Positions 4,936 to 18,747 of a DNA stretch of 54,044 nucleotides are shown one piece after another. The DNA comes from Gemmatimonadales bacterium (GTDB lineage: Bacteria; Gemmatimonadota; Gemmatimonadetes; Gemmatimonadales; GWC2-71-9). A program made the translations under genes and the position numbers. Within the stretch, counting starts at the first letter, position 1, and each line of letters opens with the position of its first letter. The stretch spans positions 1-54,044 of the forward strand of contig JBFJHJ010000020.1 in NCBI GenBank assembly GCA_041613315.1, written 5' to 3'. The notes below the pieces were generated by a model. That model did no database searches. It worked only from the letters and a program-made list of their open reading frames with translations, and had not been told where the DNA came from.

Positions 4936-7900
4936 ATGTTCACTGATGCCGCCGTTCGTCTTGACGTTCCCAGCGCGACGCTGCTGACGCAGATCGCGGC
5001 GGCGCCCCTTCCGCTGGGCCTCAGGGGCTCCCGCCCGCGCGTCACGTTCCATCGCGACGTGTACCTCGACACGCCCGATGCGATCCTCCAGCAGCGCGGC
5101 GTCACGTGCCGGTTCCGCACCAGCATGGACGATCGCCGGTTGCTCACGATTACGATGCGCGTCAGCGTCGGCGACGGGTCGCTCGTCGAGTGGCGGCGGT
5201 ACGAGGCGGAGGTCCCCGAGCTCGATGCGGCCGACGCGCTCGTCGGCGGGTCGAAACCGGCGCGTCGGCTCCGCGCGTTGATCGATCCCCGCCAACTCGG
5301 CGTGCGGGTGGAGCTGCAGACGCAGCGGCGCACGATGACCGTCCGGGCCGGCGTTCTGCCCCTCGACCGCTTCGTGATTCACTTGGATGCCGTGAGCGTG
5401 CGGGGCGGGAGTCTGGTGCGCACGTTCCACGAGCTCGTGATCCGCAAGCTCGTGACCGGGGGACGGGAGCTCGAGGCGTTGCGGGACGCTTTTCGCGCGA
5501 CGTACGGGCTCGACCCGGTCGAGGCCCCGCGCTTCCAGCGCGCCGAGGAGCTGCTGGATGCCATGGAGCGGGCGCCCGCCGCGTCGCCCGGCCCGAGGCC
5601 CGCCGAGGCCGTGCTCCTCGCGGTGGCCGACGGTCGCGTGGTGATGCGGCAGACCGACGGCACGCTCCGGCTGCCGGCGGTGACCGGAGGCGGCGAAGCG
5701 CCCTGCCGCCGCCTCGCAACGGAGCTGGGACTTCCCGCGGCGACACTCCGCCGCATCGGAGCCGTGCCCGCCCCGCCGGGGGAGCCGCCGCTCGAGGTCT
5801 GGCTCGCCGCGGCCGCACCGTCGGAGGCGCCCGCGGGGTTCGTGTGGGTACCGGTGGCCACTGTGATCGGCCTGGCGGGACACCCCGCGCTGCGGGATGC
5901 CCAAAGTCTCGCGGCGCTCGCCGTGTTCGCGTCTTCGGGCGAGTTCGATGCGATCGCGCCCGATGGCGCGGCGTCCGCCGCAGCGGACACGGCTCAGTGG
6001 GCCCCCCCGTCACCGGCCGGGACGGCGGATCGCTACCTGAATCCCGAGATCAGTTGGCTGGAGTTCAATCGCCGCCTGGTCGAGTTGGCCGACGACCCGG
6101 CGACGCCGCTCCTCGCGCGGCTGCGGTACCTGGCGATCCTGAGTGGCAACCTCGACGAGTTCTTCATGGTGCGGGTCGGATCGCTCCGACGCGCCCTGGC
6201 TGACGGGGAGGACGAGCGGGGCGACGACGGGCTCAACGTGCGCGAGCAGCTTGACGCCATCGCGATCCAGGTGCGCGGCCTCGTGCGGGCGCAGCGCCGC
6301 AGCCTGGAGCGGCTTCGGGAAGCGCTGGTGGAGCACGATGTCCGGATCCGCCGGTGGCACGAGCTCGACGCCGACGAGCAGGCGGAGCTCACGACGTTTT
6401 TCCACGACCAGGTGTTGCCACTCCTCACCCCGCACGCGATCACCCGCGCGCCGGGGCACCCGTTCCCCCACATCCCCAACCTTGAGCTCGCGCTCGGTCT
6501 CATGGTGCGGGACCCCCAGAGCGGGCGCCTGCGGTTCGGGTCGATTGCGCTCCCCACGGCGTTGCCGCGGCTCGCCCAGCTCCGGGCGCGCCCGCATTTC
6601 GTGCCGCTGGAGGATGTAGTGGGCGCTCACCTTCAGGAGCTGTATCCCAGTCGGACAGTGGAGGCGGCGCACTGCTTCCGGGTCACGCGGGCCGGCGATC
6701 TCGCGCTGGACGAGCGGGCGACCGACGACTTGCTCGACGCGGTGGAACAGGAGGTCCGGCGACGCCCCTTTGCCGGCGTCGTGCGACTGGAGCTGGAGCG
6801 CGAGATGCCCGAAGCACTGCGCGATCTGTTGCTCCGGGAGCTGCGCATGGTGGGTGGCGGCCGGTCCGGTGCGCCGGGACGCTCAGGCCTCTACGAAGTG
6901 GAGGGTCTGTTCGATCTTGGTGCCCTGAGGGAGGTCGCGGCGCTCAACAGGCCCGAGCTGGACTATCCGCCGTTCGACGGCGCGCTCCCGCTCGCGCGGA
7001 ACGAGTCGGTGTTCTCCGTACTCCAGGGGCGCGAGCTGCTCGTCCACCACCCCTACGACGCGTTCGACGGGTCCGTGCTCCGTCTCCTCACCGACGCGGC
7101 GGAGGATCCCGATGTCCTGGCCATCAAGATGACGCTGTACCGTGCGGGCGCGCGCTCGCCCGTGGTGGATGCGCTCCTGCGGGCGGCTGGCGCCGGGAAA
7201 GAAGTGGATGTCTTCGTCGAGCTCAAGGCCCGCTTCGACGAGGAGCGCAACATCGACTGGGTCCGCAAGCTGGAGCGGGCCGGCGTCCACGTCGTGTACG
7301 GGCTGGTCGACCTCAAGATCCACGCCAAGGTGGCCCTGGTGGTGCGGCGCGAAGGCGCGACCATCCGGCGCTACGCGCACGTGGGCACCGGCAACTACCA
7401 TGCGGCGACCGCGCGGCTGTACACGGATGTCGGACTGATGACGGCGGACGGCGTTCTGGGTGGCGACCTCGCGGCGCTGTTCAACGGGCTGACCGGCTCG
7501 TCCGAGCCGCCGGACGGACCGTTCCGCCGGTTACTCGTGGCGCCCCGGTTCATGCTGGAGCGCTTCCTCGCCCTCATTGAACGCGAGACGGAGCACGCGC
7601 GGGCGCGCCGAGGTGGCCGGATTCGCGTCAAGATCAACGGCCTCGCGGATCGGGACCTCGTCGAGGCGCTGTACCGCGCGGCGCAGGCCGGCGTAGAGGT
7701 GGAGTTGCTGGTGCGAAGCATCTGCACCCTCCGCGCCGGGGTGCCGGGCCTCTCGGAGCGGATCCGCGTGATCTCGGTCATGGGCCGGTTCCTGGAACAC
7801 GCACGGATCTTCTACTTCGCGAACGGCGGCGAGGACGAGTATTACATCGGGTCGGCCGATTGGCGGCCGCGCAACCTCCGGCGGCGGGTCGAAGTCGTGA

Positions 7901-8091
7901 CCCCCGTCGTCGACCCCGCCGCCTGCGCCCGGCTCGAGGCGATCCTGGAGCGGGAGGTGGCGGACGGGAGCGCATGGGAGTTGCGGCCCGACGGCTCGTA
8001 CCGTCGCCGCGGCTCAGGCGGGGGGTCGGTGGCGCAAGACGCGTTCATGCACGAGACCCGTCGGGCGCGCGAGCGCGTGTTGTCGGGCTAG
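4936..8091 (+). CDS. ppk1: polyphosphate kinase 1 with N-terminal CYTH-like and NUDIX-like extensions
   Basis: YLNPEISWLEFNRR, NLDEFFMVRV, HHPYD, KMTLYR, ELKARFDEERNI, KIHAK, GTGNY, RFLEHARI and SADWRPRNL; N-terminal RDVYLDTPD..L..RG..CRFR (CYTH-like). Confidence 0.95.
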   Translation: MFTDAAVRLDVPSATLLTQIAAAPLPLGLRGSRPRVTFHRDVYLDTPDAILQQRGVTCRFRTSMDDRRLLTITMRVSVGDGSLVEWRRYEAEVPELDAADALVGGSKPARRLRALIDPRQLGVRVELQTQRRTMTVRAGVLPLDRFVIHLDAVSVRGGSLVRTFHELVIRKLVTGGRELEALRDAFRATYGLDPVEAPRFQRAEELLDAMERAPAASPGPRPAEAVLLAVADGRVVMRQTDGTLRLPAVTGGGEAPCRRLATELGLPAATLRRIGAVPAPPGEPPLEVWLAAAAPSEAPAGFVWVPVATVIGLAGHPALRDAQSLAALAVFASSGEFDAIAPDGAASAAADTAQWAPPSPAGTADRYLNPEISWLEFNRRLVELADDPATPLLARLRYLAILSGNLDEFFMVRVGSLRRALADGEDERGDDGLNVREQLDAIAIQVRGLVRAQRRSLERLREALVEHDVRIRRWHELDADEQAELTTFFHDQVLPLLTPHAITRAPGHPFPHIPNLELALGLMVRDPQSGRLRFGSIALPTALPRLAQLRARPHFVPLEDVVGAHLQELYPSRTVEAAHCFRVTRAGDLALDERATDDLLDAVEQEVRRRPFAGVVRLELEREMPEALRDLLLRELRMVGGGRSGAPGRSGLYEVEGLFDLGALREVAALNRPELDYPPFDGALPLARNESVFSVLQGRELLVHHPYDAFDGSVLRLLTDAAEDPDVLAIKMTLYRAGARSPVVDALLRAAGAGKEVDVFVELKARFDEERNIDWVRKLERAGVHVVYGLVDLKIHAKVALVVRREGATIRRYAHVGTGNYHAATARLYTDVGLMTADGVLGGDLAALFNGLTGSSEPPDGPFRRLLVAPRFMLERFLALIERETEHARARRGGRIRVKINGLADRDLVEALYRAAQAGVEVELLVRSICTLRAGVPGLSERIRVISVMGRFLEHARIFYFANGGEDEYYIGSADWRPRNLRRRVEVVTPVVDPAACARLEAILEREVADGSAWELRPDGSYRRRGSGGGSVAQDAFMHETRRARERVLSG

Positions 8092-10361
8092 GTCAACCCC
8101 ACGCGCGCCATCACCGCCTGGAAGCTGGGGGCGTCTCGGATCGCGTCCCAGAACGGGTCGACGGCGAGAAAGCACAGCCACGCGGCGTGCTCATCGCACG
8201 CCCGCTCCAGCCAGTTGAGGGCGGTGTCGTGGTCGCCAAGCCACGTGTGGACCAGCGCGATGTCGCGCGGGGAGACGTAGCCGCCACCCGGCGCCTGCAG
8301 CTCCTCGAGCGCCGAGACAGCGTCCCGCCGCCGTCCGACGGCTGCGTAGGCGCACGCGAGGGCGGCGAGGTAGGTTTGCTGGCGGCCCGTCCCGCGCGCC
8401 ATCTCCTCGAACTCCTCCAGCGCTGCAGCCGGCCGACCGTCCACGAGATAGGTCCACCCCAGGGTCATCTGCGTCGGTGGGAACGCCGGATCGAGCTCTT
8501 TCGTCCGGAGGAGCTGGTCGACGGCCTCGTCGTAGCGGCGGGCCCAGTAATACTGGAGCCCGAGGTTGGCATTGACGATGAGGGAGACGGGGTCCAGCTC
8601 GAGCGCCTGGCGGACCGTACGGATGGCTTCCGGATGCCGCCCGCGGGCCGCGAGAAAGAAGCCGTACTTCAGGTGGGGCGCTTCGCACCCCTTCCCCAGC
8701 TCGCGGGCGCGCGCGAACTCCCGCTCCGCGGCAACCCAATCCCAATCCGCCCACATGTACGCCACGCCTAGGGTCGCGTGCGCGTCGGCGATCGTGTCGT
8801 CCAGCTCCAGTGCTCGCTCGGCCGCCGCTTTCGCGCGCCCGAACGCGTCCGTCGGCGTGAGCGGTCCGTGGCCGACCCCGAACGAGAAGTACACATTGGC
8901 GAGCCCCGCGTGGGCCAGTGCGAAGTCGGGGTCGAGCGCGATGGCCTGCTCAAAGCTCGCCAGCCCCTTCTTGCTCGACTCGACGGTGAACTTGTTCCAA
9001 TGGTGCTGCCCGCGAAGATACAGATGGTACGCCTCGAGATTGTCCGTGGGGTGCCGCCGGATCCGGGCCTCCTCCGACGGCAACAGCGTGGCCTGGAGGG
9101 CGTTCGCGATTTGCCGGGCCACGTCGCTCTGGATCTCGAAAATGTCCGTGAGCTCCCGGTCGTAGGTCTCCGCCCACCGGTGGGTGTCGGACTGCACGTC
9201 GATGAGCTGCGATGTGATCCGCACGCGTTTGCCGGCGCGGCGAACGCTGCCCTCCAGCACGGCCGCGACGCCCAGTTCCCGGCCGATGTCGACGAGGCTC
9301 TTGGTGGCGTGCTTGTACTGCATGACCGACGTGCGCGACGTGACCTTCAGATCACCAATCTTGGACAACTGGGTGATGATGTCGTCCGTAATCCCGTCAC
9401 TGAAGTACTCGTTGTCCGGATCGGCGCTCACGTTGGCGAAGGGGAGCACCGCAAGGGACTTGGCCGGGGCCGAGACGTCGCCTGACGACGTCACTCGCCA
9501 CGCCGTGTGCGGCGTCTCCGCGCCGGTCAGGGTCGCCGCGAACTCGGCGCAGGTGGGGAACCGCTCCGCCGGATCCCAGGCGAGCGCGCGCCGCATCGCG
9601 GCCCGCACCGGTTCGGGGACGGTCTCCACTGGGCCCGCCGGCGTCCGCATGCCCGCCTGCTGCGCCACGGTCACCGTCGCTAGGGTGTCGCCGGCGAAGG
9701 GCCGCCGGCCCGTGAGCATCTCGTACAGCACGCACGCGAGGCTGTAGATGTCGCTCCGCGCGTCCACGATGTCCGCCCCCGTCGCCTGCTCGGGGCTCAT
9801 GTAGCCGGGCGTGCCGATGGGGATGCCCGCGATCGTCAGGTTGTCGCCGCACGCCTGGCACACCGCCCGGGCGATGCCGAAATCGGCGACGAGGGCGTGG
9901 CCGCCCTGGAGGAGGATGTTCTCCGGCTTGATGTCGCGGTGCACGACGTCGGCTTTGTGCGCGTAGTCCAGGGCGTCGGCGACGTCGTGCGCCACGTGGA
10001 GGGCGTCGTGAACCGGCAGCGGTCCGTCGGCCACCAGCCTCGACCGGAGCGACGGCGCCGAGATGTACGGCATCACGTAATACAGAAACCCGTCGGCCTC
10101 GCCGGCGACGAAGATCGGCACGATGTGCGGGTGCGTGAGCTTCGACGCGATCTCGATCTCGCGGAGGAAGCGCTCGCGCCCCACCTCGTTGGCCAGCGTC
10201 GGCTCCAGCACCTTAATGGCGACCTCGCGGTCCGGATGGCGTTCGCGAGCGAGGTACACCGTGGCCATCCCGCCCCGGCCGATAGGGCGCGCGATGGTAA
10301 ACCTGCTGGCGAGGGCCGTGCGGAGCTCGTCGAGGTACGTTTCCGTGGGTGTCGACATCAT
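8088..10361 (-). CDS. Ser/Thr protein kinase with TolB-N-like domain and TPR repeats
   Basis: IGRGGMATVY, VAIKVL, HRDIKPEN, DFG, GTPGYMSPE; SLAVLPFANVS.DPDNEYFSDGIT; TPR helices. Start placed at MMSTPT, not 11963. Confidence 0.93.
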   Translation of the reverse strand: MMSTPTETYLDELRTALASRFTIARPIGRGGMATVYLARERHPDREVAIKVLEPTLANEVGRERFLREIEIASKLTHPHIVPIFVAGEADGFLYYVMPYISAPSLRSRLVADGPLPVHDALHVAHDVADALDYAHKADVVHRDIKPENILLQGGHALVADFGIARAVCQACGDNLTIAGIPIGTPGYMSPEQATGADIVDARSDIYSLACVLYEMLTGRRPFAGDTLATVTVAQQAGMRTPAGPVETVPEPVRAAMRRALAWDPAERFPTCAEFAATLTGAETPHTAWRVTSSGDVSAPAKSLAVLPFANVSADPDNEYFSDGITDDIITQLSKIGDLKVTSRTSVMQYKHATKSLVDIGRELGVAAVLEGSVRRAGKRVRITSQLIDVQSDTHRWAETYDRELTDIFEIQSDVARQIANALQATLLPSEEARIRRHPTDNLEAYHLYLRGQHHWNKFTVESSKKGLASFEQAIALDPDFALAHAGLANVYFSFGVGHGPLTPTDAFGRAKAAAERALELDDTIADAHATLGVAYMWADWDWVAAEREFARARELGKGCEAPHLKYGFFLAARGRHPEAIRTVRQALELDPVSLIVNANLGLQYYWARRYDEAVDQLLRTKELDPAFPPTQMTLGWTYLVDGRPAAALEEFEEMARGTGRQQTYLAALACAYAAVGRRRDAVSALEELQAPGGGYVSPRDIALVHTWLGDHDTALNWLERACDEHAAWLCFLAVDPFWDAIRDAPSFQAVMARVGLT

Positions 10362-10434
10362 CCTGTCAAAAGCTAGAAGCCCCTGAGAGCCAACGCCAGG
10401 CGGGGCGGCGGCTCGCGGGTCCGAGGGGGCGGCC

Positions 10435-10462
10435 TTGCGTTCACGCCCCGGGGGCGTACCTT
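10435..10462 (+). promoter_or_regulatory. sigma70-like promoter for the small intergenic transcript
   Basis: TTGCGT-16 nt-TACCTT. Confidence 0.5.
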
Positions 10463-10509
10463 GAAGGCCGTCCTGCCCGATCCGTTCACTCAACCAAGGA
10501 GGTGATCCA

Positions 10510-10569
10510 TTGTCTAATCCAGCCAGTCGCAACCTGGTACGGGCAAGCGATCGCCGTCTCGGTAACTGA
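10510..10569 (+). CDS. 19-aa small ORF (M/L)SNPASRNLVRASDRRLGN
   Basis: TTG start directly after a very strong SD; TGA at 10567-10569. Confidence 0.4.
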   Translation: MSNPASRNLVRASDRRLGN

Positions 10570-10642
10570 TCCCGGACCGAATCGCACTCTGCGCCGACTG
10601 ATCTGATGCCGTCGCGGCATCGTCCCAGGTTGCAGAGGTCCT

Positions 10643-10688
10643 GAGCGGCGTCGTCGGGCGTTCGGTCCCGACGGCGCCGCTCTTGCAT
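10643..10688 (+). terminator. intrinsic terminator-like hairpin
   Basis: GAGCGGCGTCGTCGGG / CCCGACGGCGCCGCTC 16-bp stem with one G-U, followed by TTGCAT (weak U-tract). Confidence 0.6.
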
Positions 10689-10754
10689 CGGCCGCTTGAC
10701 ACGCCCCTCGCCCCAGGCCTCAATTTCGACATCCCCCACTTGAGGTAACGATCG

Positions 10755-11393
10755 ATGCCGCTCGTGTGTTCGCCTCGTGGCGTCCTGCCCGTGTGCCTTG
10801 CCGCCCTCGGGATCGTCCCCGGCACGCTCGCCGGCCAGCACCTGCGGCCGGAGGAGCGGCAGGCTCTCCTCACTCAATTGCACGCGAGCCGCGCCCAGTT
10901 CCACAAGGCGGTGGGGGATCTGACCGATGCCCAGTGGACCTTCAAGCCGGCGCCGGACGTCTGGTCGGTGGCGGAGGTCGCCGAGCACATCACGGTCTCG
11001 GAAGACGCCCTGCGCCAGCTCGTGCTGGAAGAAGTCCTGACGGCGCCTGCCGAACCCGGGCGGCGGCGGGAGCTGCCGGCCAAGGCCGACGAGGTCGTGC
11101 AGTTCATGCACGACCGGAGCCAGCGGTTTCAGGCGCCGGCGTTCGTGGCGCCCGCTGGCCGCTGGCCGTCGCGGGGCGGGCTGCTCGAGGCGTTTGACGG
11201 CTCGCGGGCCATGACGATCGCTTTCGTGGACACGACGCGGTCGGAGCTGCACGCTCACTTTCGCGACAATCCCGCCCTCGGGCCGCTCGACGGCTACGAG
11301 TGGCTGTGGTGGCTCGCCGCGCACACGGAGCGCCACCTGATGCAGATCGCGGAAGTGAAAACCCATCCCGCGTTCCCCCGACGTCGAGGATAG
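10755..11393 (+). CDS. DinB family protein (secreted)
   Basis: Signal peptide; QWTFKPAPDVWSVAEVAEHI and AAHTERHLMQI His motifs. Confidence 0.88.
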   Translation: MPLVCSPRGVLPVCLAALGIVPGTLAGQHLRPEERQALLTQLHASRAQFHKAVGDLTDAQWTFKPAPDVWSVAEVAEHITVSEDALRQLVLEEVLTAPAEPGRRRELPAKADEVVQFMHDRSQRFQAPAFVAPAGRWPSRGGLLEAFDGSRAMTIAFVDTTRSELHAHFRDNPALGPLDGYEWLWWLAAHTERHLMQIAEVKTHPAFPRRRG

Positions 11394-11402
11394 CCGCCCC
11401 GC

Positions 11403-11861
11403 ATGGGTGACTCCCCGGACCGCGAGGCGCCAAGTCCCGGCGCGGCCGAGCGCCGCCGCCTGGGCTTTGTGCTCGGTGCGCTCCTCGTGGCGGTGCTTGG
11501 GGAGCTGGCCGTGCTCGTCCTGGTGTCCGCGCCGCTCGCGCGCGCCGTGGGCGGCATGGCGCTGGCCGCGGTGATCGTCTGGCTCGCCATGGGGCTCGGG
11601 GCGGCGCGCGTTCTCCAGGCGCGGAGAGCCAGCGGGCCGATTCGGCGGTTCGACGCCCTGCGCGCCACTGTCGAGGAGTTCCTGGCGGAGATCCGGCGCC
11701 TCAACTGGGTCGCGGTGATCGGCGAGCGCGGTTTCCGCGATCCCGAGACCGCCGAGCGGGAGCGTGGGGTGATCGAGCGGCGCCTGCACCAGCTGGTGGA
11801 CGAGATCCGCGATGCCGCGGGCCGAGAGTCGGCCGGCGGGACGCGGGCGAACGACGCCTGA
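11403..11861 (+). CDS. hypothetical membrane protein (2 TM plus cytoplasmic helical domain)
   Basis: Two hydrophobic segments; 9 nt downstream of the DinB stop, same strand. Confidence 0.7.
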   Translation: MGDSPDREAPSPGAAERRRLGFVLGALLVAVLGELAVLVLVSAPLARAVGGMALAAVIVWLAMGLGAARVLQARRASGPIRRFDALRATVEEFLAEIRRLNWVAVIGERGFRDPETAERERGVIERRLHQLVDEIRDAAGRESAGGTRANDA

Positions 11862-11976
11862 CGCCCGTCCCGGACGACCCACGGCGCGCCTGTGGGCAGG
11901 CCGAACGCGCCGTGTGCTGGCCCGGCGCCTTCCGCCCCGCCATCTTTCCTCCACGCCTCCCACGCCGAGTGCCCGA

Positions 11977-12279
11977 ATGAACCGGTTCCGCTACTTCTCG
12001 GCCGTCCTGCTGACGGCGATCGTCATTTTCTTTGCGCTCCAGAATCTCGACGCGGTCGAAGTGCGGCTGCTGCTCTGGCGGGTCGAAGCCAGCATCTCGC
12101 TGATCGCGCTGGGCCCCTTCCTGGTCGGTCTCCTGCTGGGTGGGATCACGGCGCTCTACTACGCCGCACGGCGGGGGCGCCGCGCGGCGGATGCATCACC
12201 TCTCCCACCTCTCGCGGCGCCGTCGCCGGACGCCCCGCTCAAGGAATCGCGCGAGCACGAGCGGTCGACGGGGCGCTAG
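11977..12279 (+). CDS. LapA (DUF1049) family small membrane protein
   Basis: IVIFFALQNLDAVEVRLLLWRVEASISLI...FLVGLLLG signature. Confidence 0.85.
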   Translation: MNRFRYFSAVLLTAIVIFFALQNLDAVEVRLLLWRVEASISLIALGPFLVGLLLGGITALYYAARRGRRAADASPLPPLAAPSPDAPLKESREHERSTGR

Positions 12280-12452
12280 TCGCCTCGCCGGTCGTCGGCC
12301 GCACGCCATTGCACGGGCGCGTGCGACTTCTTGCTCACATCTGGACCAGGCCGTATGTTGGGCCTAACCGCATTGGTTGTTCTCTTCCGCCGTCCGCCTC
12401 CGGCGCGCGGCGGCTCTGCGCCCTCGTCAGGCTTCGTTTCAGGAGGTGTCCT

Positions 12453-15230
12453 GTGATACGTGGGCTATTCCCGGTATTGATCAGCGGCATGGTGCTCGGC
12501 GGTCTCGCCGCCGTCGGTTCCCAGCCGCTCGCGGCCCAGACCGGCACGATCTCAGGCCGTGTCGTGTCGGCGGAGACCGGACAGGCACTGGCCAGTGCGG
12601 ACGTGTTCGTCGTCGGCACGGTGCGCCGGTCGCTGACCGACGTGGACGGCGGCTTCAGTCTCGGCATGCCGCCCGGCACCTACACCGTGCGGGCCCGGCT
12701 GGTCGGGTACCAGGCGGCGGAACAGCAGGTCAGCGTGAGCGCCGGCGCCACGGCGACCGTGGAGTTCCGGCTCCAGGCCGGCGCGGTCATCATGGACGAG
12801 CTCGTGGTGATCGGCTCGCGCACCCAACGCAGTGTGCTCGAGACGCCGGTACCGGTGGACGTGATCCCGGCCTTCGAGCTGCGCGAGGCCGGCCACACCG
12901 AGGTCAACCAGATCCTCGCCACGGCCGCACCGTCGTTCAACGCCAGCTACCAGACAATCGCCGACGGATCCGACCACATCAATCCCGCGAGCCTCCGGGG
13001 TCTCGGACCCGACCAGGTGCTCGTGCTCGTGAACGGCAAGCGGCGGCACCAGAGCGCGTTGCTGCACGTGAACGGCACGTTCGGGCGCGGGACGGTAGGC
13101 GTCGACCTCAACGCCATTCCGCCGGCCGCCATCGAGCGGATCGAGGTGCTGCGGGACGGCGCCTCGGCGCAGTACGGGTCCGACGCCATCGCCGGGGTGA
13201 TCAACATCGTCCTCAAGGACCAGACGCAGCACATCGAAGCCAACGGCATGGCCGGCGTGAGCGGCGGGTACGCACCGATGTTGAGTACCGAGGGCCGACG
13301 GCGGGACGGTGAACAGGTCCGCACCGACGTCAACTTCGGCTTTCCCTTCGGCGACCGCGGATATGTCAACGTCACGGGCGAGTACTTCAACATCGAGCGG
13401 ACGAACCGCTCCGATCCGTGGCAAGGCGACATCTTTCCCGGTATCAGCGGTACCGCCGCGACCGACGCGGAGCTGACGCGGCTCGGGCTCACGCGCGACG
13501 ACTTTTCGATGAAGACGGGACAGGGCGCGGCGACGGGCGGCATGATCTTTTACAACGCCGCCGCGCCGCTGGGCGAGTCCGCCGAGTTCTACAGCTTCGG
13601 CGGCGTCTCGCACCGCAATGGCGCCGCCACGGGCTTCTACCGGCTGCCCAACCAGGAGGCCCGGGTGGTCCCGGAGATCCACCCGAACGGCTTCCTGCCC
13701 GAGATCCACACCGAACTGCAGGACCGCTCCTTCACGGCCGGGATGCGCGGGGCGACGGCCGGCTGGGACCTCGATCTGAGCGTCACACATGGCGGGAACT
13801 CGCTGCAGTTCAATATCGAGAACTCGGACAACGGGTCCATGGGCACGTCGAGCCCAACGACGTTCGACGCCGGGCGACTGCACTTCACGCAGACGACCGG
13901 CAACTTCGATGCCGTCCGGCTCCTCAACACCGGCGGGGCCCTCCGGTCGCTCTCGCTGGTCTTGGGCGGGGAGTTCCGCGTTGAGAACTACCGGATCGAT
14001 GCCGGCGAAGACGCGTCGTGGCAGCTCGGAAACGGCGGCAGTCGTCCCGGGATCGACTTCGACACAACCGCATCGGGCGCGCCCAAAGAGCCGGGGTCGC
14101 AGGTGTTCCCCGGGTTCCAGCCCTCCAACGAGGTGGATCGGTTCCGCAACAGCATCAGCGCCTACGCCGGCCTCGAGATCCAGGCGACGGACAAGTTCCT
14201 CGTGGACGTGGGTGGCCGGTTCGAGAACTATGAGGACTTCGGGAACCGCTTGACCGGCAAGGTCGCGACTCGCCTCGAGGTGTCGCCCGAGTTCGCGATC
14301 CGCGGCGCGCTAAGCACCGGGTTCCGGGCTCCCTCGCTGCATCAGATCTGGTTCAACAACGTGAGCATCCAGTTCCTGCTCGTCGGCGGCAGCCTCGAGC
14401 CCGTGCGCGTGCTCACCAGCAACAACCAGAGCCGCGTCACCAAGGCGTTCGGCATCCCCGACCTCAAGGAAGAGACGTCGGTCAACGTGAGCGCCGGCTT
14501 CACCGCGCGGCCGCTCAACAACCTCTCCCTCACGGCGGACTTCTACCACGTGAGGATCGACGACCGGATCGTGCTCACGAGCCGGTTCGACAACGCCGAC
14601 CCGATCGTCGCGGGAATCCTCCAGCCGTTCGCCCGGGACGGTGTGGGCGCCGCCCAATTCTTCGCCAACGCGGTGGATACCAGGACCAACGGCGTGGACA
14701 TCGTGGCGGCGTACGAGACGTCTGCCGGGCCGGGCACGCTTACCCTGCAGGGCGCGGCGAACCTCACCGATACCGAGGTCCTGCGCATCAACATCCCGCA
14801 GGCGGTAGCGGACACCTTCGCGGGCGGCGACCTGAACGCCGTCGCCAACACGATCTTCAACCGCGAAGAGCGGAACCGGCTCGAGGACGCGCTGCCGCGC
14901 GTGAAGGGCAGTTTCTCCGCGCGCTACGCGGTGGATCGGTTCACGTTCAAGGCACGCGGCACCTACTACGGCTCGATCGAGTACAAGCCGCCCGCGGCGG
15001 CCGACGATGAGACCTTCGGCGCGAAGACCCTCTTCGATCTCGACGTGGGCTACGAACTCCGCCAGGGCGTGCGCGTCTCGGTGGGCGGGACCAACATCTT
15101 GAACACCTTCCCGGACCGGCACTTGAAGCCGTCGAACTACAGTAACGGCCGGTTCCCGTTCAGCCGCCGCGTCACGCAGTTCGGCATGAACGGGGGGTTC
15201 TACTACGCGCGGCTGCAGCTGACCCTGTAA
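12453..15230 (+). CDS. TonB-dependent receptor with CarboxypepD_reg-like N-terminal domain
   Basis: AGGAGG SD before GTG; GTISGRVV; ELVVIGSR; plug LRGLGPDQVLVLVNGKRRH, IERIEVLRDGASAQYGSDAIAGVINI; barrel STGFRAPSL. Confidence 0.95.
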   Translation: MIRGLFPVLISGMVLGGLAAVGSQPLAAQTGTISGRVVSAETGQALASADVFVVGTVRRSLTDVDGGFSLGMPPGTYTVRARLVGYQAAEQQVSVSAGATATVEFRLQAGAVIMDELVVIGSRTQRSVLETPVPVDVIPAFELREAGHTEVNQILATAAPSFNASYQTIADGSDHINPASLRGLGPDQVLVLVNGKRRHQSALLHVNGTFGRGTVGVDLNAIPPAAIERIEVLRDGASAQYGSDAIAGVINIVLKDQTQHIEANGMAGVSGGYAPMLSTEGRRRDGEQVRTDVNFGFPFGDRGYVNVTGEYFNIERTNRSDPWQGDIFPGISGTAATDAELTRLGLTRDDFSMKTGQGAATGGMIFYNAAAPLGESAEFYSFGGVSHRNGAATGFYRLPNQEARVVPEIHPNGFLPEIHTELQDRSFTAGMRGATAGWDLDLSVTHGGNSLQFNIENSDNGSMGTSSPTTFDAGRLHFTQTTGNFDAVRLLNTGGALRSLSLVLGGEFRVENYRIDAGEDASWQLGNGGSRPGIDFDTTASGAPKEPGSQVFPGFQPSNEVDRFRNSISAYAGLEIQATDKFLVDVGGRFENYEDFGNRLTGKVATRLEVSPEFAIRGALSTGFRAPSLHQIWFNNVSIQFLLVGGSLEPVRVLTSNNQSRVTKAFGIPDLKEETSVNVSAGFTARPLNNLSLTADFYHVRIDDRIVLTSRFDNADPIVAGILQPFARDGVGAAQFFANAVDTRTNGVDIVAAYETSAGPGTLTLQGAANLTDTEVLRINIPQAVADTFAGGDLNAVANTIFNREERNRLEDALPRVKGSFSARYAVDRFTFKARGTYYGSIEYKPPAAADDETFGAKTLFDLDVGYELRQGVRVSVGGTNILNTFPDRHLKPSNYSNGRFPFSRRVTQFGMNGGFYYARLQLTL

Positions 15231-15335: not shown

Positions 15336-16217
15336 TCAGGCGGCGCCGGTGTGCTTCTTGCGCGTGGCGGCCGTCTTCTTCTTGGATGCCGACTTCTTGG
15401 CGACGCGCTTGTCCGGTTTGCGCGCCGTCGCGTCGGCACCCTCGCCGCCCGCAGCGAGGCTCGCCTTGAGCGCCTCCATGAGGTCGATGATCTGCGTCTT
15501 CGGCTCTTCGGCCGGCGCGGTGGTGATCTCTTCGCCCTCGACCTTCCGTTGGATCATCTCAAGAACCCGACGGCGCACCTCGTCGCCGTACTTGCCAGGC
15601 TCGAAGCGCTCGGACGCGGCCTGGCGAATCAGTTGCACCGCGAGTTTGAGCTCCTCCGCCTTCACGGCGCCGTCCCCGAGGGGCACCTCGGAAAACGGCC
15701 GGATCTCGTCGGCGTAGTGGAGCTGCTCCATAACCAGTCCGTCGTCCATCGGGCGCACGAGCACGAGATACTGCTTGCCCCGCGCCGAGTAGCGGGCCAG
15801 TGCCGAGAGCCCCGTTTCCTTCATCGCCGCGCCGAGCAGGCGATACGCCCGCTCGCCGCCCTTGTCCGGGCCGAGGTAATACACCTTGTCGAGGAACAAT
15901 CGCTCCACCAGCTCCGCCGGCACGAATTCCTCGATGTCGATGGTCTCGCTGGCTTTCTGCTCCAGCGCCTTCAGCTCTTCCGTGGTGAAGGTCACGTATT
16001 GGTTCTTGGCGAATTCGTAGCCTTTCACCATCTCGTCGCGCTCCACGACGTTCCCGTCCTGCTTGCAGACGTACTGCTGCTTCAGCCGGGAGCCGCAGTC
16101 TCTGTGAAGCCAATTGAACGAGACGCTCGCCGACGACTCGGCCGCGGAATACAGGCTGATCGGGACCGAGACGAGCCCGAAGGAGATGGTGGCGGAACTA
16201 ATGGGCCGTGCGGGCAT
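15336..16217 (-). CDS. ku: non-homologous end joining protein Ku
   Basis: ISFGLVSVPISLYSA, MVKGYE, IDIEEFVP, YYLGP, IIDLMEALKASL and a Lys/Arg-rich tail. Confidence 0.96.
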   Translation of the reverse strand: MPARPISSATISFGLVSVPISLYSAAESSASVSFNWLHRDCGSRLKQQYVCKQDGNVVERDEMVKGYEFAKNQYVTFTTEELKALEQKASETIDIEEFVPAELVERLFLDKVYYLGPDKGGERAYRLLGAAMKETGLSALARYSARGKQYLVLVRPMDDGLVMEQLHYADEIRPFSEVPLGDGAVKAEELKLAVQLIRQAASERFEPGKYGDEVRRRVLEMIQRKVEGEEITTAPAEEPKTQIIDLMEALKASLAAGGEGADATARKPDKRVAKKSASKKKTAATRKKHTGAA

Positions 16218-16245
16218 GGGAGCGGTATGATATCCTTGTAGGGCC

Positions 16246-18747
<2,502 letters not shown>

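What the first reader, a model, noticed from the sequence alone, without database searches (positions are those of the whole stretch)
10435..10688. Stand-alone structured small transcript carrying a 14-nt complement of the 16S rRNA 3' end and a 19-aa sORF
Seen: the intergenic gap between the kinase and DinB genes holds a complete mini transcription unit. It has a promoter-like TTGCGT-16-TACCTT (10435-10462), then AAGGAGGTGATCCA (10496-10509), then TTG-started SNPASRNLVRASDRRLGN* (10510-10569). A 12/13-bp long-range helix (GCAACCTGGTACG 10529-10541 with CGTCCCAGGTTGC 10621-10633) encloses further stems (GCGAT/ATCGC, TCGGT/ACCGA, ATGCCG/CGGCAT), and a 16-bp terminal hairpin follows (10643-10682). 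ATCCAGCC, the continuation of the 16S complement, recurs at 10517. Established: AAGGAGGTGATCCA is the reverse complement of the conserved 16S 3' terminus, far longer than a normal SD, whereas many genes in this window have weak or no SD. Inference: this may be an undescribed ribosome-binding sRNA or micropeptide element, for example a 30S sponge or storage RNA, or a regulatory peptide. I do not recognise it as tmRNA, 6S, SRP or RNase P.
Basis: partly seen in the sequence, partly recalled or inferred. Interest (0 to 1): 0.85.

Follow-up and report, generated by a model that had tools for sequence, protein, structure and literature searches.

The report
Self-masking ribosome-docking mini-mRNA
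This is a real, free-standing gene for a small folded RNA whose start can grip the docking tail of the ribosome and which carries a built-in decoy that can hide that grip; it is a distant relative of the little-understood 'rre' mini-mRNAs of other bacteria, whose job is still unknown.

Summary
Real and conserved. The gap holds a ~215-nt stand-alone RNA gene of Gemmatimonadota (69 of 150 phylum genomes by my model, nearly always one copy, varied neighbours): promoter-like site, 14-nt complement of the 16S tail, TTG start, 19-codon frame, long helix, terminal hairpin. The frame is kept (stop position fixed, all three stop codons used) but the peptide is not; constraint lies on the RNA. Inside the frame sits a mimic of the 16S tail that can pair with the RNA's own Shine-Dalgarno (closed fold); a covarying long-range helix hides the mimic instead (open fold). 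The folds exclude each other and are close in computed energy, suggesting a gated ribosome-docking switch. Closest known: rre mini-mRNAs (rreB/rreR, Hahn 2016) and Rfam CC2171, which appear to be one class. It misses their >=16-nt complement and the Rfam cut-off, so I file it as a variant. No expression data were available. The repeated ATCCAGCC is chance. This scan has already reported rre-type RNAs on other DNA, Gemmatimonadota included. A 30S sponge or storage role is neither shown nor excluded.

The parts
10435..10462 (+). Promoter-like site (-35 TTGCGT, 16 nt, -10 TACCTT)
   Evidence: TTG-N16..18-TAnnnT upstream of the SD in 47 of 178 homologs, 41 of them 31-35 nt upstream; 0-7 hits of 147-177 at nine shifted anchors. 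Not found by the strict scan.
10470..10495 (+). 5' leader (start inferred at about 10469-10470), with conserved GCCC at 10475-10478
   Evidence: Start inferred from the -10 position only. GCCC can pair with GGGC 10541-10544 as a pseudoknot in the open fold: 97.9% of cells paired, no double change; both motifs present in 62, both absent in 12, one only in 9 of 83 homologs (kin not independent).
10496..10509 (+). Extended Shine-Dalgarno, 14 nt complementary to the 16S 3' tail
   Evidence: Complement length 11-18 nt in 179 homologs, 13-14 in 130, >=16 in 12; duplex -24.8 kcal/mol against -9.2 for a 6-nt SD.
10510..10569 (+). sORF, TTG start, 19 codons + TGA
   Evidence: 135 distinct homologs without a length filter: all 16-23 codons, 110 with 20; stops TGA 71, TAG 33, TAA 31. 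Other clades 11-25 codons with unrelated peptides.
10528..10538 (+). 5' strand of long-range helix P2a (open fold), partner 10624-10634
   Evidence: 9 of 11 pairs show changes on both sides, 91% of cells paired in 59 sequences; also predicted by RNAalifold.
10541..10555 (+). Invariant core with the 16S-tail mimic GATCGCC (10549-10555); pairs with SD extension and start codon (10501-10515) in the closed fold P1, or with 10615-10622 in the open fold (P2b)
   Evidence: P1: 13 pairs, 100% of 753 cells paired, no double change in the 59; one compensatory A-U to G-C change in L456. Mimic in 83 of 83 loci not chosen by the core pattern, in two reading frames.
10559..10580 (+). Hairpin P3 around the stop codon
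   Evidence: Two pairs with double changes in the RNAalifold consensus; the window's own register is shared by few rows (15% paired).
10586..10597 (+). Alternative partner for the 3' strand in the closed fold (P4)
   Evidence: In the computed closed fold; column counts inconclusive because the alignment is poor here.
10606..10634 (+). Small hairpin 10606-10620 and 3' strand of P2 (10615-10634)
10643..10686 (+). Terminal 16-bp hairpin with a weak T-tract (likely intrinsic terminator)
   Evidence: 10 of 11 counted pairs with double changes; >=5 T in 8 nt in 38 of 59 homologs, 4 T here.
8088..10361 (-). Divergent neighbour: Ser/Thr kinase with TPR repeats (not part of the element)
   Evidence: Pfam Pkinase from residue 22, TPRs.
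10755..11393 (+). Downstream neighbour: DinB_2-superfamily gene with its own GAGGT SD (not part of the element)
   Evidence: Pfam DinB_2; no DinB_2 among 86 flanking frames of 43 homolog loci.

Best explanation
An rre-type mini-mRNA that works at the level of RNA and ribosome, with a gated docking site. It is transcribed on its own (inferred). While it is being made, the 16S-tail mimic inside the frame pairs with the RNA's own SD extension and start codon and keeps ribosomes off (computed). Once the 3' part exists, a long-range helix P2 can capture the mimic and free the SD (helix supported by covariation; switching inferred). A 30S subunit then docks through 11-14 pairs that cover the free 16S tail, initiates poorly at TTG, and must unwind P2 to read the frame (inferred from rreB, where tight 30S binding, weak translation and start-codon-dependent decay were measured). 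The likeliest role is a ribosome-activity sensor or timer: the fold and lifetime of the RNA depend on how often a docked ribosome clears it. The peptide is mostly a by-product; what reads the state of the RNA is unknown.
For: Conserved single-copy unit in 69 of 150 genomes with 25 different downstream Pfam families, 13 of 39 convergent. Frame kept with three stop codons against a 0.28 chance after shuffling. TTG 168, GTG 11 of 179 (pattern demanded T or G), one ATG among 28 variant loci. Invariant residues use one codon each (GCA 35/36, AGC 36/36, GAT 33/33, CGC 35/35); the mimic lies in frame 0 in 60 and frame 2 in 23 of 83 loci, at +18 to +60; seven different second residues occur. P2a covaries. 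Nascent folds mask >=6 SD bases in 50 of 59 (30% after shuffling) and 14 of 15 short-frame clades (23%). In full-length folds P2 forms in 43 of 59, the SD is masked in 17, both in 1, neither in 0; the two folds lie within 5 kcal/mol in 42 of 59. CC2171-type RNAs behave alike: masked in 60 of 63 nascent, 18 of 63 full-length folds. rreB experiments: PMC5711450.
Against: No transcript, ribosome or structure-probing data for this family. The closed helix has almost no covariation (0 double changes in 59 rows; one in L456); 11 of 14 variant second codons break one of its inner pairs and the GTG clade shows no compensating change. The SD-mimic duplex beat shuffles at p<=0.05 in only 66 of 83. This very copy favours the closed fold by 7.6 kcal/mol, the extreme of the set. 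Shuffled controls mask the SD often in the CC2171 and rreB types (68%, 75%), and rreR types show no nascent masking (5 of 14 against 47%). A ribosome placed on the stop codon restored masking in only 15 of 59 folds, so translation is not shown to flip the switch. The element was not found in 81 of 150 genomes, several near-complete: it is dispensable.
Confidence: 0.55

Rival explanations
1. Tightly throttled mRNA for a functional micropeptide (type I toxin-like control, or a peptide acting on the ribosome or another complex).
For: Frame length and stop are conserved; SD masking by alternative folds is how type I toxin mRNAs are controlled (recalled, no call); Hahn et al. read RreB and RreR as conserved proteins.
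Against: Peptides of the 11-, 14-, 15-, 20- and 25-codon clades are unrelated; no synonymous change at conserved residues; frame shifts through the core are tolerated (L046, L208, L209, L217); hydrophilic, mean hydropathy -1.0 here, median -0.56, maximum 0.71, unlike membrane toxins; RreB and RreR were unstructured and overproduction had no effect.
Confidence: 0.2
2. 30S sponge or storage RNA that parks small subunits or initiation complexes, for example in starvation.
For: Duplex of -24.8 kcal/mol over the free tail; weak start; rreB co-sediments with 30S; modest SD use in this genome.
Against: rreB is far less abundant than ribosomes and 20-fold overproduction did not affect growth; a translated frame and start-dependent decay fit poorly with storage; patchy distribution.
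Confidence: 0.12
3. Cis-acting leader or attenuator of the downstream DinB-family gene or of the divergent kinase.
For: Weak T-tract after the hairpin in this copy; sORF plus alternative folds resembles attenuators.
Against: Neighbours differ, 13 of 39 downstream genes are convergent, none is DinB_2; the terminal hairpin forms in both computed folds.
Confidence: 0.05
4. Guide or protector for the 3' end of 16S rRNA during maturation.
For: The most conserved 11 nt match the tail up to the base of helix 45 (position recalled, no call).
Against: Complementarity seldom runs past the tail into precursor sequence (>=16 nt in 12 of 179); start codon and frame would be needless.
Confidence: 0.05
5. 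Chance, an rRNA remnant, or coding sequence (the kinase frame on the minus strand stays open across the element).
For: Open minus-strand frame 8088-11963.
Against: Reversed-pattern control 0 in 301 genomes; covariation; the kinase domain starts 22 residues after the ATG at 10361; true 16S antisense continues differently.
Confidence: 0.01

Closest known systems
rreB (Bradyrhizobiaceae) and rreR (Rhodobacterales) small mRNAs, Hahn et al. 2016, PMC5711450
   Same: Stand-alone small RNA; same head: rreB primer reads CAACGA-AAGGAGGTGATCCA-GTG-TCT, here CAACC-AAGGAGGTGATCCA-TTG-TCT; non-ATG start directly after the complement; short frame whose peptide differs between clades; SD predicted to be paired; context not conserved.
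   Different: 14 nt instead of 16-17 nt of complement, lacking the 5' extension that rreB needs for ribosome association; TTG, so the start codon does not extend the duplex; other phylum; body sequence unrelated (my model gives rreB-type loci only 18-26 bits); a two-fold switch was not described in the parts of the paper I read.
Rfam RF01867 CC2171 (Caulobacter sRNA; Northern-confirmed in Methylorubrum, 10.1101/2022.01.24.477521)
   Same: Best Rfam hit for the window (23.8 bits), best CC2171 hit in the genome, only Rfam hit for 10 of 14 homologs (22-36 bits). Loci over the CC2171 cut-off carry the same head and 22-28-codon frames; rreB-type loci score 39-44 and rreR-type 31-38 bits, so CC2171 and rre look like one class.
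   Different: Far below the gathering score of 75; in CC2171 types the long helix starts at +7, here the covarying part starts at codon 7-8; Rfam lists CC2171 as an sRNA.
Type I toxin mRNAs with very strong, masked SDs (recalled, no call)
   Same: Strong SD hidden by alternative folds in front of a short frame.
   Different: Peptide hydrophilic and not conserved; no antisense partner seen.
Rhodopirellula-1 motif (Weinberg 2010, PMC2864571)
   Same: A lead from memory only.
   Different: Alignment rows seen in the supplement share nothing with this RNA: rejected.

Membership tests
rre small mRNAs (rreB/rreR) | At least 16 nt of perfect complementarity to the 16S 3' end | tested here: not met
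   14 nt here; >=16 in 12 of 179 homologs, against 112 of 112 in the GTG metagenome set, which was selected by a pattern that nearly forces it.
rre small mRNAs (rreB/rreR) | Complement runs into the first base of a GTG start | tested here: not met
   TTG here and in 168 of 179; GTG in 11.
rre small mRNAs (rreB/rreR) | Weak non-ATG start directly behind the complement | tested here: met
   one ATG variant, L456.
rre small mRNAs (rreB/rreR) | Short frame conserved within a clade, peptide unrelated between clades | tested here: met
rre small mRNAs (rreB/rreR) | Stand-alone unit with own promoter and terminator | tested here: met
   By sequence only; no transcript data.
rre small mRNAs (rreB/rreR) | SD and start codon predicted to be paired within the RNA | tested here: met
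   (computed; little covariation).
rre small mRNAs (rreB/rreR) | Co-sediments with 30S, weakly translated, decay depends on the start codon | not testable with these tools
   Shown for rreB only.
Rfam CC2171 (RF01867) | Score at or above the gathering cut-off of 75 bits | tested here: not met
   23.8 bits; homologs 22-36 bits.
tmRNA, 6S, SRP, RNase P, riboswitches and other Rfam families | Match to the family model | tested here: not met
   No family reached its cut-off in 9800-11300; none of these appeared at E<=10.
Type I toxin-antitoxin | Hydrophobic membrane peptide | tested here: not met
   Mean hydropathy -1.0; maximum 0.71 in 179.
Type I toxin-antitoxin | Overlapping antisense antitoxin RNA | not tested
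   No transcript data; no dedicated search for a conserved antisense promoter.
Attenuator leader | Fixed downstream gene class and a fold that competes with the terminator | tested here: not met

The most novel reading that the evidence does not exclude
A bistable RNA clamp for the small subunit: in the open fold the 14-bp SD duplex holds the 30S from behind, helix P2 blocks the mRNA entry side, and the 5' GCCC pairs with the GGGC loop to close a ring around the subunit's neck, so that the RNA parks initiation complexes until a signal or slow translation opens it; rreB, rreR, CC2171 and this family would be one multi-phylum class of RNA-based ribosome hibernation or sensing factors.
Probability: 0.12. 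Interest if true: 0.85.

Novelty: new variant of a known kind. Interest (0 to 1): 0.52.

Why it matters
rre RNAs have had no function since 2016. This family supplies about 200 diverse sequences that separate what selection keeps (docking site, weak start, a stop after 11-25 codons, an internal 16S-tail mimic, a competing long helix) from what it lets drift (the peptide). That turns 'function unknown' into specific lock-open and lock-closed mutants, and it links an Rfam 'sRNA' (CC2171) of genetically tractable bacteria to the same class. If the switch is real, it is a rare case of an RNA whose ligand and actuator is the ribosome itself.

Tried and rejected
Expression: no RNA holder listed for 9500-11500, so no reads were laid; this is no evidence either way. 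Rhodopirellula-1 motif: unrelated. ATCCAGCC repeat: not conserved. A fixed distance of helix P2 from the start codon: my folds either took in flanking DNA or forced the first 15 bases open, so I make no claim. Flip to the closed fold by a ribosome at the stop: 15 of 59 only. Covariation of the alternative helix P4: inconclusive. Hairpin P3 in the window's register: 15% paired. Automatic terminator calling was unreliable; the 59 rows of A1 are those of 179 with a 20-codon frame (plus the window), a hairpin called at +118 to +147 and <=88% similarity to each other, so short-frame and GTG clades are not in the covariation counts. Dropped rows: L180 and L202 (frames of 67 and 58 codons, chance hits of the pattern), L476 (no element), duplicates (197 loci to 179). 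Ten genomes without a pattern hit were searched for the bare 12-mer: it gave 16S genes or other contexts, yet G038 later proved to hold a variant, so pattern counts are lower bounds. Viral contigs: 15 of 56 distinct pattern hits had frames <=30 codons, several of them rreB- or CC2171-type; none was followed up as a member of this family. No mention of rre in the passages searched in PMC10117765 or PMC13285730. The supplement of PMC11109978 could not be read and might list this motif. The peptide is too short for the protein searches and was not folded.

Full report
Observation. The 14-mer AAGGAGGTGATCCA is unique in the window and in the genome and equals the complement of the 16S tail of related genomes; the genome's own 16S end gave no match in this 83%-complete assembly. 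The region folds better than 200 of 200 shuffles. It lies between a divergent kinase-TPR gene and a DinB_2 gene. No Rfam family reaches its cut-off; the best hit is CC2171 at 23.8 of 75 bits, matching the SD, start and terminal hairpin.

Distribution. Record titles of the pattern hits place the family in Gemmatimonadota (80 titles shown of 120 hits, scan truncated; a few are labelled only 'bacterium' and one Gammaproteobacteria). BLAST found a match in 136 of 301 phylum genomes, some of which touch only the terminal hairpin. The head pattern occurs in 138 of 301, the reversed control in 0. A covariance model built from 30 sequences found 69 of 150 genomes, one copy each apart from one weak second hit that proved empty, and 0 of 19 outside the window's class. 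These three tallies include the unpublished genomes G057 and G097. Whole genera gave no hit although near-complete: not found in those searched, not shown absent. Of 43 loci sampled (every second long locus), 39 had a Pfam-named downstream gene: 25 families, 26 co-oriented and 13 convergent, no DinB_2. The element is therefore not a leader of its neighbour.

Transcription unit. A TTG-N16..18-TAnnnT arrangement sits upstream in 47 of 178 homologs, 41 of them 31-35 nt before the SD, against 0-7 at nine control anchors. Other clades have a longer conserved leader instead (35 of 178 carry GGACYGCGG upstream). The terminal hairpin covaries (10 of 11 pairs) and is followed by >=5 T in 38 of 59 homologs; this copy has 4 and is missed by the strict scan. 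No RNA run was listed, so expression is inferred.

The frame is kept, the peptide is not. With no length filter, 135 distinct homologs all have frames of 16-23 codons, 110 of them 20, with TGA 71, TAG 33, TAA 31; these were selected by similarity or by the core pattern. Of 60 further loci, most picked by the head pattern alone, two were chance hits with long frames (dropped), two had a different second codon (recovered) and the rest have 11-25 codons. Shuffling gives a first stop in that range 28% of the time. The 11-, 14-, 15- and 25-codon clades encode unrelated peptides. In 36 twenty-codon frames not chosen by the core pattern (though most came from BLAST with the window), invariant residues use a single codon. 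The second codon, TCY in the pattern sets by construction, also occurs as Pro, Leu, Ile, Thr, Tyr and Ala. The peptides are hydrophilic. Selection thus keeps a weak start, a short frame and RNA sequence.

Two folds. The invariant core 10541-10555 is complementary to the RNA's own SD extension and start codon (GGUGAUC with GAUCGCC, UUGUCU with GGGCAA): 13 pairs, all 753 cells paired, but with no double change because both sides barely vary. GAUCGCC mimics the 16S tail with one G-U wobble. A 7-mer of this kind was found in 83 of 83 loci not chosen by the core pattern (75 with 7 of 7 pairs, 8 with 6 of 7), at +18 to +60 and in two reading frames; since a best-of-window search with wobble allowed finds much by chance, the better test is the duplex energy, which beat dinucleotide shuffles at p<=0.05 in 66 of 83 and 159 of 179. 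One distant member, L456, changes an A-U pair of this helix to G-C. Against: 11 of 14 variant second codons break one inner pair, and the GTG clade does not compensate. Folding RNAs cut 8 nt after the stop masks >=6 SD bases in 50 of 59 (30% in shuffles) and 14 of 15 short-frame members (23%). In full-length minimum folds P2 forms in 43 of 59, the SD is masked in 17, both in 1, neither in 0. Forcing each fold gives a median difference of -2.9 kcal/mol for P2, within 5 kcal/mol in 42 of 59; the window's copy favours the closed fold by 7.6. A possible pseudoknot between the 5' GCCC and the GGGC loop is 97.9% paired without double changes, and the two motifs tend to be lost together.

Mechanism. 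Seen in sequence comparison: the unit, the frame, helix P2a, the terminator. Computed: the closed fold, its exclusion with P2, early masking. Inferred: masking during synthesis, unmasking by the 3' strand, tight 30S docking (-24.8 kcal/mol against -9.2 for a 6-nt SD), slow initiation at TTG, unwinding of P2 by translation, and ribosome-dependent turnover. I put 0.55 on an RNA-level ribosome sensor or timer, 0.2 on a throttled functional peptide, 0.12 on 30S storage. A ribosome modelled on the stop codon restored masking in only 15 of 59 folds, so a one-shot flip is not supported.

Comparison with what is known. rreB has a 17-nt complement, GTG start, 14 codons, a predicted hairpin over the SD, co-sediments with 30S, is weakly translated, and is stabilised when its start becomes a stop; overproduction did not affect growth. 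Its head is nearly identical to ours, including TCT after the start, which is not 16S complement. A metagenome scan for the GTG head gave 117 loci (truncated), 112 distinct, all with frames of 14-29 codons. Of 20 scanned against Rfam, all 20 hit CC2171, 9 above its cut-off; 14-codon loci beside a tRNA, which I take for rreB from the primer and the paper's context, score 39-44 bits, and 18-codon loci that I take for rreR by length alone score 31-38. Their taxonomy was not determined, and one (L254) belongs to our family. CC2171 and rre therefore look like one class. CC2171 was Northern-confirmed in Methylorubrum (10.1101/2022.01.24.477521, passages). CC2171 types show the same computed pattern of early masking and late release (60 of 63 and 18 of 63; shuffled baseline 68%); rreB types stay masked in both; rreR types are masked only at full length. 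My model scores these loci at 11-28 bits, largely for the head (a chance hit with the head scores 12.7), so common descent rests on the head and layout, not on the body.

Membership and novelty. The element fails two of the paper's hallmarks (>=16 nt; complement into a GTG) and the Rfam cut-off, so I call it an rre-like variant. Searches that found no description in Gemmatimonadota: (listings and abstract starts), with passages or supplements of PMC2864571, PMC10117765 and PMC13285730; the supplement of PMC11109978 was unreadable and subscription papers are not covered. This scan has noted rre-type RNAs before, twice in Gemmatimonadota and in other phyla (unchecked AI notes, one marked as partly fallen).

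Verdict. Real; new variant of a known but functionally open kind; interest 0.52.

Noticed in passing
window 4936-8091 (+): Polyphosphate kinase (PPK1 domains from residue 367) fused behind an N-terminal CYTH-like domain. CYTH-domain genes also lie directly downstream of the element in L082, L088, L091 and L107.
   Followed up: no
window 8088-11963 (-): The kinase reading frame stays open for about 530 codons upstream of its likely ATG (10361), across the RNA element and antisense to the DinB_2 gene; probably a GC-rich shadow frame.
   Followed up: partly
window 10439-10449: The promoter spacer holds GTTCACGCCC, the same motif that begins the RNA leader in many homologs; chance or a short duplication.
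   Followed up: no
L016, L023, L027, L029 and 31 more, 40-110 nt upstream of the SD: A conserved extra 5' region (GGACYGCGG plus a hairpin) in 35 of 178 homologs, many of them Longimicrobiales, suggests a longer RNA or another promoter type in those clades.
   Followed up: partly
L344, L352, L365, L387 (viral contigs), match at 501-520: rre-like heads before 11-26-codon frames, some basic and followed by a hairpin, that fit none of the types seen here; whether they are viral or host DNA was not checked.
   Followed up: no
L456 (G049:C102:201700-202150, -): Distant member with an ATG start and a compensatory change in the self-masking helix.
   Followed up: partly
L156-L158: 16S tails ending CCUCCUUAAC instead of CCUCCUUUCU in three genera of family f2; none of the three genomes had the head pattern.
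   Followed up: no
window 15336-16247 (-): Ku (non-homologous end joining) gene; a long frame at 11892-15230 looks like a TonB-dependent receptor by eye (not scanned).
   Followed up: no
L033, L059, L071, L094 and L026, L030, L040, L048, L074: Lineage-level synteny: Kdo-transferase upstream and Rce1-like protease downstream in one group, M50B peptidase upstream in another.
   Followed up: no
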